DNA from: a virus
Lineage: Duplodnaviria > Caudoviricetes
Virus record (IMG/VR): IMGVR_UViG_3300037313_000296
Location: 1 to 35,119 of that record
Reading direction: 5' to 3' (one strand)
DNA: 35,119 bases
Shown here: positions 1-1,821 of the stretch, one piece after another
Layout of the letters: each line of letters begins with the position of its first letter
How positions within the stretch are numbered: the stretch's first letter is position 1
Program-made: the position numbers and the translations under genes
Notes under the pieces: model-generated
Databases searched by the model: none
The model's input: the letters and a program-made list of their open reading frames with translations, nothing else
What the model was told of the DNA's origin: nothing

Positions 1-240
1 GGATTTTTTTTTGAGGCAAGATCTGCTTTAGTGATCACCCAAAAAACGTGTATGCTCGGTTCTGTATACAGCCCTGAACAGGTGTTTGGGGCTTGACAAA
101 CGACACGGGACCACTCAAAGGATCGAGACACTCCGGGCGGGCCTGCCCAAGGGGATTGGCCTTCTCCCCACCGACCTCTTTGGCGCATCTCGGTCCCTTG
201 AGTCGCCCCGTGTAGGGCGACAGGATCGACGCTAAGGGGC

Positions 241-441
241 CTAGGCGCCCTTCTGAGCGGCTTTCCCCTTCCGGACGACGTTCAGGCCCAGTGAGACGCC
301 GGGGGCGCCCTCAATCGACGTGAAGCCAGATGTCGTGGCGATGATGTTCGTCTTGCCAGAAGTGGAGGGGCCGAAGTCCTGCGACAGGTCGATCTCGATG
401 GTCAGCTTGGTGCCCTTAACCGTGGTCTTAACGTTCTGCAT
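241..441 (-). CDS. Small early protein (66 aa), conserved-looking hypothetical
   Basis: ATG at 441 with RBS GGGAGGA upstream; phage-like codon usage; KLTIEIDLS..GPSxSGKTxIIA pattern resembles a widespread small beta-rich family I cannot name. Confidence 0.8.
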   Translation of the reverse strand: MQNVKTTVKGTKLTIEIDLSQDFGPSTSGKTNIIATTSGFTSIEGAPGVSLGLNVVRKGKAAQKGA

Positions 442-464
442 ACAAAATTCCTCCCAAAGGTGTA

Positions 465-538
465 GTAGGGAACGGCCTCTTCAGTGACCGCTTGACGGTC
501 AGACCCCTCGTGTGGAGGGGTTTCGGCCTGCACTCTAC
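465..538 (-). ncRNA. Type II hammerhead ribozyme
   Basis: Minus strand 528->474 reads GGCC GAA ACCCCUC CACAC GAGGGGU C UGACCG UCAAG CGGUCA CUGAAGA GGCC: complete CUGANGA and GAAA core, perfect 7-bp stem III, GUC cleavage triplet (cut between 502 and 501), perfect 6-bp stem I, open stem II closed by G10.1-C11.1. Confidence 0.9.
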
Positions 539-606
539 CCCAGTTCCTAGGCGCCCAGACGGTGGGCGAAGTCGGCCCGAAACCCGGTGCTTCATGTTGA
601 GCATGG

Positions 607-795
607 TTACACCCTCTCCAGTAGGACTTCCGGATCGAAAAGGTCCTCCAGCAGGAACAGAAGGCCGTAGTTACGCTCAAGGACCTTGGGCGGATCGATG
701 TCAAGGCCGTATTGGGACGCTTGGACTGCGTCACACTCGAAACGGTTGCTCAGACTGTTCAGGGTCTCGTAAGCCTTGCGGAAAGCCTCCAGCAT
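607..795 (-). CDS. Hypothetical early protein (62 aa, MLEAFRKAYE...)
   Basis: ATG at 795 with RBS AGGAGGAG; the longer ORF-track start at 873 overlaps the upstream gene. Confidence 0.75.
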   Translation of the reverse strand: MLEAFRKAYETLNSLSNRFECDAVQASQYGLDIDPPKVLERNYGLLFLLEDLFDPEVLLERV

Positions 796-806
796 GGTTA
801 CTCCTC

Positions 807-983
807 CTACTTGGTCAGCATAATGGTCTTGGAGCGGATATCGGCAGAATACCCGGCGCCTTGTTCTTCCCACTCATACTGGGCACGCCATGCCGAGCCG
901 TAGCAGGCTCCGAAGCCCGTACTGTGATCCCAAAGACCGCCCTTGTAGAAATGTACGATGTAGCGAATGGTAGCCGTAGGCAT
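807..983 (-). CDS. Hypothetical early protein (58 aa, MPTATIRYIVHFYKGGLWDHSTGFG...)
   Basis: Not in the ORF track (<60 aa); ATG at 983 preceded by GGGGAGTGATGGGAG; its TAG overlaps the RBS of the next gene. Confidence 0.7.
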   Translation of the reverse strand: MPTATIRYIVHFYKGGLWDHSTGFGACYGSAWRAQYEWEEQGAGYSADIRSKTIMLTK

Positions 984-989
984 CTCCCA

Positions 990-1336
990 TCACTCCCCAG
1001 TTCTCTGTCGGATCGGCCCAGCTTTTCAGCTTCTGGCCTCAATTGCAGGCCCAGCCTTGCGGCTGAGTCCTGCTATCAGGTCAGAAACCTGTTACTTTGG
1101 TTGGTTGTTTTTGCGGGGCATCATACCCGGCTAGCACTACACGCAGGGTTAAACATCTGCGCTAGTTGACTTGCGACTATGGCCTACTGCCTATGGTGGC
1201 AGGTCACGGTCATAGAAGGCCCGTTTGACGCTCGGACAGCGCATTCGCTAGATCTGGTCTTACGTGCAATCTGGCTAGGCCAGTTCCCACTGCCTCATTC
1301 TGGGGGCCGGGGCCGGGTCCGTCGCTTCCGGATCTG
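990..1336 (-). ncRNA. Long structured non-coding leader / candidate ncRNA (~340 nt)
   Basis: No credible ORF; starts just after the promoter at 1342-1370; terminal pairing CGGCCC/GGGCCG and many hairpins (CUGGC/GCCAG, CUGCC/GGCAG, CUAGC/GCUAG, CAGGU/ACCUG, CAGCC-GCAA-GGCUG). Confidence 0.5.
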
Positions 1337-1341
1337 AGACC

Positions 1342-1370
1342 ATCTTACCACACTACCGATTCGCTGTCAA
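1342..1370 (-). promoter_or_regulatory. sigmaA early promoter P1
   Basis: TTGACA-17-TAAGAT with extended -10 TG. Confidence 0.85.
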
Positions 1371-1562
1371 GATCGATTTTGTAGTTTGGTTCGATGGGGT
1401 TGGGTCTTGCCCACTGTCCAGCCGTCCTGCCCTACAAAGAGGAGATGTGCCAGACCTGTGGAGCGTCGGACGAATCCAGCCGATCAACGGATCGGCCTTC
1501 ACCTTCTATCCAGACCGCCCCTCTCGGGTACGGCCCAGACCCGGCGCTTTCGACTTGATCCC

Positions 1563-1591
1563 ATCTTAGCATACTACGTTTTCGATGTCAA
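1563..1591 (-). promoter_or_regulatory. sigmaA early promoter P2
   Basis: TTGACA-17-TAAGAT with extended -10 TG; upstream AACTACAAA(A/T)TCG shared with P1. Confidence 0.85.
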
Positions 1592-1792
1592 CACCGAATT
1601 TGTAGTTCGTTGGGTCCGGGTCCGGTCTAGGATCGGCGAGCTAGCCTGCACCGTTTCGGTCTCACTCCCGTACCTGCCCCCATACTGGGATGACAGTCCA
1701 GAGGAAAGGTGTTGACCTACCTGCCGTGCTTCTAGTCCAGCCAGACCGTCCCTTGCGGGATGGGTCTCGCTCCGTGCCCTTGACCTGAGACC

Positions 1793-1821
1793 AGTGTAGC
1801 ACGTGGCACATGCTATGTCAA
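1793..1821 (-). promoter_or_regulatory. sigmaA early promoter P3
   Basis: TTGACA-17-TACACT with extended -10 TG and AT-rich upstream tract. Confidence 0.85.

What the first reader, a model, noticed from the sequence alone, without database searches (positions are those of the whole stretch)
465..538. Complete hammerhead ribozyme inside the early mRNA, cutting 60 nt upstream of a gene
Seen: all conserved core nucleotides and three stems of a type II hammerhead on the minus strand, the strand driven by promoters P1-P3, with a GUC cut between 502 and 501. Established: cleavage leaves a 5'-OH downstream product, and in B. subtilis the glmS ribozyme 5'-OH product is degraded by RNase J1. Inference: the phage uses self-cleavage to uncouple, stabilise or destroy the message of the 66-aa gene (241-441). 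Functions of phage hammerheads are largely unknown, and this one has an obvious target.
Basis: partly seen in the sequence, partly recalled or inferred. Interest (0 to 1): 0.82.

Follow-up and report, generated by a model that had tools for sequence, protein, structure and literature searches.

The report
Lone phage type II hammerhead ribozyme
A soil phage carries a complete self-cutting RNA motif (a type II hammerhead) 60 bases ahead of a small gene; it likely trims a long early message into a hairpin-protected single-gene message rather than destroying it, a kind of element known in phages since 2011.

Summary
The hammerhead is real: minus strand 529-474, full core, cut predicted at 502|501, 60 nt before the AUG at 441. 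Rfam RF02276 scores 28.7 bits (cut-off 37); 0 of 600 shuffles give equal stems. It belongs to a pseudoknot-free subtype with a loop-I U and stem-II A, and stem I covaries in 48 aligned copies. In 95 related phage hammerheads, 77 precede a ribosome site and start codon and 70 abut an upstream stop: gene-junction punctuation, described by Perreault 2011 and noted often by this scan on other phages. The cut leaves a base-paired 5' end, unlike glmS, so stabilisation is likelier than decay. The 66-aa gene is no dedicated target: 73 of 81 relatives lack a nearby hammerhead, and enrichment over controls is not significant. The host is likely Bacillota. Cleavage and transcription are untested. Extras: an upstream strand (585-574) predicted to sequester the core, within a defective ZTP-riboswitch look-alike (unique, possibly chance), and a long RNase III-like stem (214-102) after the gene. 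New member of a known kind.

The parts
474..529 (-). Type II hammerhead ribozyme, pseudoknot-free subtype; predicted cut between 502 and 501
485..501 (-). Stem I hairpin (6 bp, 5-nt loop starting with U495); becomes the 5'-terminal hairpin of the downstream product
503..521 (-). Stem III hairpin (7 bp); becomes the 3'-terminal hairpin of the upstream product
529..529 (-). A just 5' of stem II, predicted partner of loop-I U495 (tertiary contact, inferred)
   Evidence: 56 of 56 subtype relatives; 9 of 11 independently found type II copies have the whole signature
450..455 (-). Shine-Dalgarno site of the 66-aa gene
241..441 (-). 66-aa gene of a large unnamed family, all-beta predicted fold, function unknown
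574..585 (-). Strand complementary to the 5' half of the core (528-518): candidate anti-ribozyme helix, not conserved
546..620 (-). Weak ZTP-riboswitch look-alike (P3-like hairpin 568-552) lacking the pseudoknot strand; probably chance
428..604 (-). 58-codon open frame with a ribosome site, running through the ribozyme; codon use like non-coding DNA
607..795 (-). Upstream small gene (62 aa)
807..983 (-). Upstream small gene (58 aa)
102..214 (-). Long imperfect stem after the 66-aa gene, candidate RNase III-type processing site (inferred)
1342..1821 (-). Three extended -10 sigma-70/sigma-A type promoter-like sites (1821-1793, 1591-1563, 1370-1342)

Best explanation
This is a complete type II hammerhead in the sense strand of the phage's early operon that likely cuts the long early transcript constitutively at 502|501 and would release the 66-aa gene's message with a hairpin-protected 5'-OH end, so it is predicted to act as gene-junction punctuation that insulates and stabilises, not as a decay trigger. 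Shown: the anatomy, its non-randomness, covariation in relatives, and their position between a stop codon and a ribosome site. Inferred: transcription from the three promoters, cleavage through a loop-I U / stem-II A contact, and the effect on stability. In type II topology both products end in a hairpin (stem III upstream, stem I downstream), which suits processing without decay. The stem at 214-102 may be cut by host RNase III, which would bound the message on its 3' side too. The element is not tied to this gene; it serves whichever small gene follows.
For: Core and stems complete; 0 of 600 shuffles. In 48 aligned subtype copies 97.7% of cells pair, with 141 two-sided changes against 38.6 in shuffles; 6 of 6 stem I pairs and 2 of 4 stem II pairs show compensation. 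77 of 95 relatives have a ribosome site plus start within 45 nt (random positions 24%, antisense 13 of 96); 70 of 95 have an upstream stop within -2..+4 nt of stem II (random 2.3%); median leader 54 nt, here 60. All 37 hammerheads near 66-aa-family genes lie on the gene strand, up to 11 in 6 kb, mostly at gene junctions. 5' end of the product predicted paired. No predicted gain in ribosome-site access on cutting (unpaired 0.16-0.42 before, 0.14-0.35 after). Literature passages: tandem prophage hammerheads cleave in vitro and in E. coli (PMC3088659); three D. vulgaris type II hammerheads cleave in vivo (PMC8782182); a hairpin at a cleaved 5' end protects against RNase J1 in B. subtilis (10.1101/2023.03.12.532304); RiboJ raises transcript about twofold in E. 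coli (PMC6206723).
Against: No cleavage, transcript or half-life data. This copy is alone and atypically placed: the upstream stop is 78 nt away, not adjacent. It is absent from the one closer relative with enough upstream DNA (L207) and from Paenibacillus phage API480. An upstream strand is predicted to out-compete the fold in some contexts (stem II 0.14 in 620->400 and 0.07 in 800->400, against 0.92-0.96 without that strand). Stem I of the product can swap for a pairing with the coding sequence in some contexts (0.18-0.30 stem I). B. subtilis trims 2 nt from 5'-OH ends by an unknown enzyme, whose action on paired ends is not known. The Rfam score is below the gathering cut-off.
Confidence: 0.66

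Rival explanations
1. Regulated ribozyme: the upstream strand 585-574 pairs with the GAAA half of the core and holds it off; ribosomes on the 604->428 frame, or a ligand bound by the ZTP-like fold at 620-546, would release it, so cutting would report translation or metabolic state.
For: 11 pairs with one bulge; duplex -20.0 kcal/mol, p 0.0034 against 5000 shuffles of the upstream 100 nt; pairing 0.83 in 620->400. The strand lies in codons 7-11 of an ORF with a ribosome site (-6.9 kcal/mol) that starts 2 nt after the upstream stop. Rfam ZMP-ZTP look-alike directly upstream.
Against: Only 1 of 96 hammerheads (this one) has a 9-nt complement, and 4 of 96 reach p<=0.05, as chance predicts. By the same folding measure this copy is no worse than most relatives (rank 76 of 95). 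ORF604 scores like non-coding frames (127 of 251 null frames lower, 1 of 90 real windows lower). The ZTP match is 14.5 bits, E 3.5; 27 model positions are replaced by 12 nt, so the pseudoknot strand needed for binding (10.1101/521930) is missing. 0 of 120 viral loci with the P3-like word plus GAAA hold a hammerhead; 0 of 95 relatives have the P3 word upstream.
Confidence: 0.12
2. glmS-like decay: the 5'-OH product would be attacked by RNase J1, so the ribozyme would lower or shut off the 66-aa protein.
For: Host likely Bacillota, a group with RNase J1; the glmS product is degraded by RNase J1, and 5'-OH ends are trimmed by 2 nt to a monophosphate.
Against: No single-stranded 5' end is left. 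No cofactor domain is seen. Arrays with a hammerhead before nearly every gene (L135, L198) make blanket destruction unlikely.
Confidence: 0.1
3. Passenger or relic: the ribozyme came in with a small-gene cassette from an array-bearing phage and is now neutral or mostly misfolded.
For: Single copy; none in closer phages; not adjacent to an upstream stop; competing helix predicted; in three array phages the same gene family has a hammerhead just upstream.
Against: Every core base and every stem pair is intact, and the U/A signature is kept, which drift would erode.
Confidence: 0.1

Closest known systems
Type II hammerhead ribozymes, Rfam RF02276 (Perreault et al. 2011, PMC3088659)
   Same: Same circular permutation, consensus core, GUC site and phage/prophage context among small genes.
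   Different: Scores 28.7 bits against a cut-off of 37; lacks the loop I / 3'-tail pseudoknot of the published consensus; has a 4-bp stem II with a U/A loop-type signature instead (a class that paper's Figure S5 also counts).
Clustered prophage hammerheads of C. scindens, A. caulinodans, A. tumefaciens (PMC3088659) and D. vulgaris (PMC8782182)
   Same: Sense-strand ribozymes ahead of small phage genes, proposed to cut polycistronic RNA into gene-length messages; flanking genes vary.
   Different: Those are clusters with shown cleavage; this is one untested copy in the 35 kb held, 78 nt from the upstream stop.
Loop 1 U / loop 2 A interaction of natural hammerheads (Dufour et al., PMC2632901, abstract)
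   Same: U at the 5' side of loop 1 and A at the 3' side of the stem II closure.
   Different: Stem II is open here; the loop has 5 nt and no extrahelical pyrimidine at the usual place in this copy.
glmS ribozyme-riboswitch of Bacillota
   Same: Self-cleavage in a leader leaves a 5'-OH on the downstream message.
   Different: Different fold, no cofactor site, and a base-paired 5' end after cutting.
RiboJ insulator (synthetic; PMC6206723)
   Same: A ribozyme removes upstream sequence and leaves a hairpin-bearing leader ahead of the ribosome site.
   Different: Engineered, derived from a plant satellite RNA, tested in E. coli.
RNase III processing of B. subtilis phage SP82 early mRNA (cited in PMC4838370)
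   Same: Processing of a phage early transcript at structured sites; the stem at 214-102 resembles such sites.
   Different: Needs a host enzyme; RNase III cleavage here is untested.

Membership tests
Hammerhead ribozyme | Core CUGANGA, GAAA and NUH around a three-way junction | tested here: met
Hammerhead ribozyme | Stems I, II, III with covariation in relatives | tested here: met
   stem III and the inner two stem II pairs were fixed by the search pattern and say nothing
Hammerhead ribozyme | Self-cleavage after H17 giving 2',3'-cyclic phosphate and 5'-OH | not testable with these tools
   needs in vitro transcription or end sequencing
Type II hammerhead (RF02276) | Stems I and III closed, stem II open | tested here: met
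Type II hammerhead (RF02276) | Rfam gathering score 37 bits | tested here: not met
   28.7 bits, E 0.00044 on 261 nt
Pseudoknotted type II consensus (Perreault 2011) | Pseudoknot of 4 or more pairs between loop I and the 3' tail next to stem II | tested here: not met
   no Watson-Crick match of 3 or more here; 9 of 57 in this subtype against 28 of 39 in the other
U/A loop-contact hammerheads | U first in loop I and A closing stem II | tested here: met
   U495, A529; 56 of 56 (U was part of the subtype definition, A was not); 9 of 11 in an independent set
U/A loop-contact hammerheads | Contact formed in three dimensions and needed for fast cleavage | not testable with these tools
   needs mutants and kinetics
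Clustered phage hammerheads | Two or more ribozymes flanking genes | tested here: not met
   one copy in the 35 kb held; the contig is incomplete
glmS ribozyme | glmS fold, cofactor dependence, position before glmS | tested here: not met
   no Rfam glmS match; downstream gene unrelated
ZTP riboswitch (RF01750) | P1-J1/2-P2 with a pseudoknot from J1/2 to the P3 loop | tested here: not met
   P3-like hairpin present, J1/2 strand missing; 14.5 bits against 39
RNase III site (stem 214-102) | Long stable stem with small internal loops, cut by RNase III | tested here: inconclusive
   shape met; cleavage untested

The most novel reading that the evidence does not exclude
A naturally gated hammerhead: the upstream strand 585-574, embedded in a ZTP-riboswitch-like fold and in a ribosome-loaded frame, sequesters the catalytic core until a ligand or a translating ribosome frees it, so the phage would release a one-gene message (hammerhead at the 5' end, RNase III stem at the 3' end) only on a signal.
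Probability: 0.07. Interest if true: 0.75.

Novelty: new member of a known kind. Interest (0 to 1): 0.27.

Why it matters
What phage hammerheads do to their messages is still open (review PMC6765202, section 13). This copy is a compact test case: one ribozyme, one downstream gene, a likely Bacillota host where RNase J1 genetics exist, and a clear prediction (protection, not decay) that follows from type II topology. It also shows that the Rfam cut-off misses a common pseudoknot-free subtype. It is an uncultured phage and adds no new mechanism unless the upstream strand proves to gate cleavage.

Tried and rejected
Whole-window Rfam scan: nothing; short scans of 1-400 and 540-2100 gave only chance-level matches, no second ribozyme. 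Dedicated ribozyme-gene pairing: rejected. Pseudoknot: not found. Seventh stem I pair U-G: never compensated, 15 of 48 unpaired, read as loop. ZTP riboswitch tandem: 0 of 120 loci. Function of the 66-aa protein: no Pfam or PHROG family, no PDB sequence match below E 0.1, no fold match, atlas neighbours unnamed, none in cultured phages. Close relatives of the locus: none in cultured phages by blastn; three metagenome loci with the gene have no hammerhead; no portal relative in genomes. Expression: no RNA holder listed, which is no evidence either way. The contigs of the one DNA run, possibly the source, cover 1-2400 without differences and end at position 1 too. In one search the ribosome-site window and a stem III index were misplaced; one search replaces those figures. 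My notebook gives the anti-core strand as 572-583; 574-585 is right.

Full report
Observation. The minus strand holds a complete type II hammerhead at 529-474: stem II 528-525/477-474, GAAA 524-521, a 7-bp stem III, GUC at 504-502, a 6-bp stem I with a 5-nt loop, and CUGAAGA at 484-478. The predicted cut at 502|501 leaves a 60-nt leader before the AUG at 441. Rfam RF02276 matches at 28.7 bits, under its cut-off of 37, on a 261-nt stretch, and not at all in the whole-window scan. A descriptor for all three topologies finds only this site; 2 of 600 shuffles gave a loose hit and 0 of 600 one with stems this long. The 86-nt fold has z -2.7.

Setting. The window is a whole 35,119-nt contig, incomplete at least at its right end, where a gene is cut. 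It encodes terminase, P22-like portal, capsid, amidase, DNA polymerase A, primase and a PD-(D/E)XK nuclease. The best cultured match to the terminase is Paenibacillus phage API480 (38%), which has the same layout, with leftward small genes behind several promoters. Most of the best amidase matches are from Desulfosporosinus. A Bacillota host is therefore likely, not shown. Three extended promoter-like sites point toward the ribozyme, and no minus-strand terminator-like site lies between. The one run that holds the DNA is a soil metagenome and may be its source.

Relatives. Two subtypes appear. One (39) mostly has the published pseudoknot (28 of 39 with 4 or more pairs). The other (57 with this copy), defined by a 17-nt stem-loop I with U in position 7, mostly lacks it (9 of 57; none here). 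I aligned 48 of these 57, leaving out nine near-duplicates by eye. 97.7% of cells pair, with 141 two-sided changes against 38.6 in shuffles and at most 35 in slid controls; all six stem I pairs and the two outer stem II pairs compensate, while the seventh U-G never does. Stem III and the core were fixed by the pattern and carry no information. An A precedes the 4-bp stem II in 56 of 56 relatives, and 9 of 11 type II copies found without the pattern show the same signature. This matches the loop 1 U / loop 2 A contact of natural hammerheads (PMC2632901, abstract), which Perreault et al. also tallied for type II (Figure S5 legend and text layer; bar heights not readable). The contact is inferred.

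Position. 77 of 95 relatives have a ribosome site and start within 45 nt of stem II (random 24%, antisense 13 of 96), 70 of 95 have an upstream stop within -2..+4 nt (random 65 of 2820), and 61 have both. These ribozymes fill gene junctions. This copy fits on the downstream side (32 nt) but not upstream (78 nt).

The downstream gene. It scores as coding and belongs to a large unnamed family (3267 clusters at E<=0.001) with a confident all-beta model (pLDDT 90) and no sequence or fold match. Of 81 viral loci with a relative, 8 hold hammerheads, 37 in all and all on the gene's strand, up to 10 and 11 in 6 kb. In L135, L137 and L198 one cuts 28-35 nt before the gene. But 2 of 38 control loci (32 DUF3310, 6 terminase) hold one too (p 0.40; 7 of 80 against 1 of 37, p 0.21), and none of the 124 hammerhead loci encodes the protein. 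The gene is a frequent passenger of small-gene regions, not a dedicated target.

Mechanism. Shown: anatomy, covariation, junction position. From established chemistry: cutting gives a cyclic phosphate and a 5'-OH (PMC6765202, passages). Inferred: in type II topology the downstream product begins with stem I and the upstream product ends with stem III. The first 4 nt of the product are predicted paired in four contexts, though in two the partner is coding sequence; the median over 95 hammerheads is 0.07 unpaired. In B. subtilis a hairpin at a cleaved 5' end raises product level in an RNase J1-dependent way, while the glmS product is degraded (10.1101/2023.03.12.532304, passages); RiboJ raises transcript about twofold (PMC6206723, passages). 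Ribosome-site access shows no clear gain on cutting. I favour constitutive processing with protection (0.66). The stem at 214-102, the most stable of 1078 130-nt tiles of the window (z -3.3 for 1-240), resembles RNase III sites, which are known in SP82 early mRNA (PMC4838370, passages and reference list). It could bound the message on the 3' side; this is untested.

The odd part. 585-574 can pair with 528-518 (p 0.0034 against shuffles) and dominates the predicted fold of 620->400 (0.83). It lies in a frame with a ribosome site (604->428) and in a weak ZTP-riboswitch look-alike (14.5 bits, E 3.5). Against it: 1 of 96 hammerheads has such a complement and 4 of 96 reach p<=0.05; the frame scores as non-coding; the pseudoknot strand that ZTP binding needs (10.1101/521930, passages) is missing; 0 of 120 loci show the tandem. 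I give a gated ribozyme 0.12, and the full novel case 0.07.

What is known. Perreault et al. 2011 (PMC3088659; passages, section 7, supplement 5) reported type II hammerheads, clusters flanking prophage genes of varying identity, cleavage in vitro and in E. coli, and the proposal of gene-length mRNAs. Three D. vulgaris copies cleave in vivo (PMC8782182, passages). The purpose remains open (PMC6765202, section 13). Two searches for later work on phage mRNA processing by hammerheads found no primary study; the library lacks most subscription journals, and Perreault's alignment dataset was not read, so the subtype may already be catalogued there. This scan has noted many larger arrays on other phages (134 notes) and nothing on this genome or sequence. 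PMC7509114 (passages) added only general support for 5' stem-loops.

Verdict. A real, probably active hammerhead; a new member of a known kind; interest 0.27.

Noticed in passing
window 102-214, minus: Long imperfect stem (29 pairs, -64.9 kcal/mol), the most stable 130-nt tile of the window, 27 nt after the 66-aa gene; candidate RNase III site; no Rfam family.
   Followed up: partly
window 546-620, minus: ZTP-riboswitch look-alike with a near-consensus P3 hairpin but no pseudoknot strand, whose linker is complementary to the hammerhead core.
   Followed up: yes
L135 178-5540, L198 739-5405, L137, L168, L169, L131: Dense arrays of 2-11 hammerheads in 6 kb, mixing types I and II on one strand, mostly one per gene junction; several genes are flanked on both sides, so their fragments would carry ends that an RtcB-type ligase could circularise (inference).
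   Followed up: partly
window 241-441; proteins P0013-P0047: The 66-aa family has over 3000 clusters, no Pfam name and no fold match; it has an invariant S-x-S-G-K motif and also occurs as 2-4 repeats inside larger proteins.
   Followed up: partly
L003-L124, 5' edge of stem II: In many relatives the upstream gene's stop codon overlaps the ribozyme edge and supplies the conserved A (TAG at that place in 37 of 96).
   Followed up: partly
window 1335-1407 and 1556-1628: 73-nt direct repeats (73% alike, 221 nt apart), each holding one early promoter-like site.
   Followed up: no
window 600-613 and 791-804: The start regions of ORF604 and of the 62-aa gene share 13 of 14 nt, suggesting that ORF604 is a decayed gene start.
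   Followed up: partly
L207 107-2811: A related phage carries, in the same leftward region, two genes that look (from recalled motifs, not scanned) like an amidoligase and a class II glutamine amidotransferase; it has no hammerhead there.
   Followed up: no
L215, L216: A hammerhead lies near a DUF3310 gene in two probably redundant control contigs.
   Followed up: no
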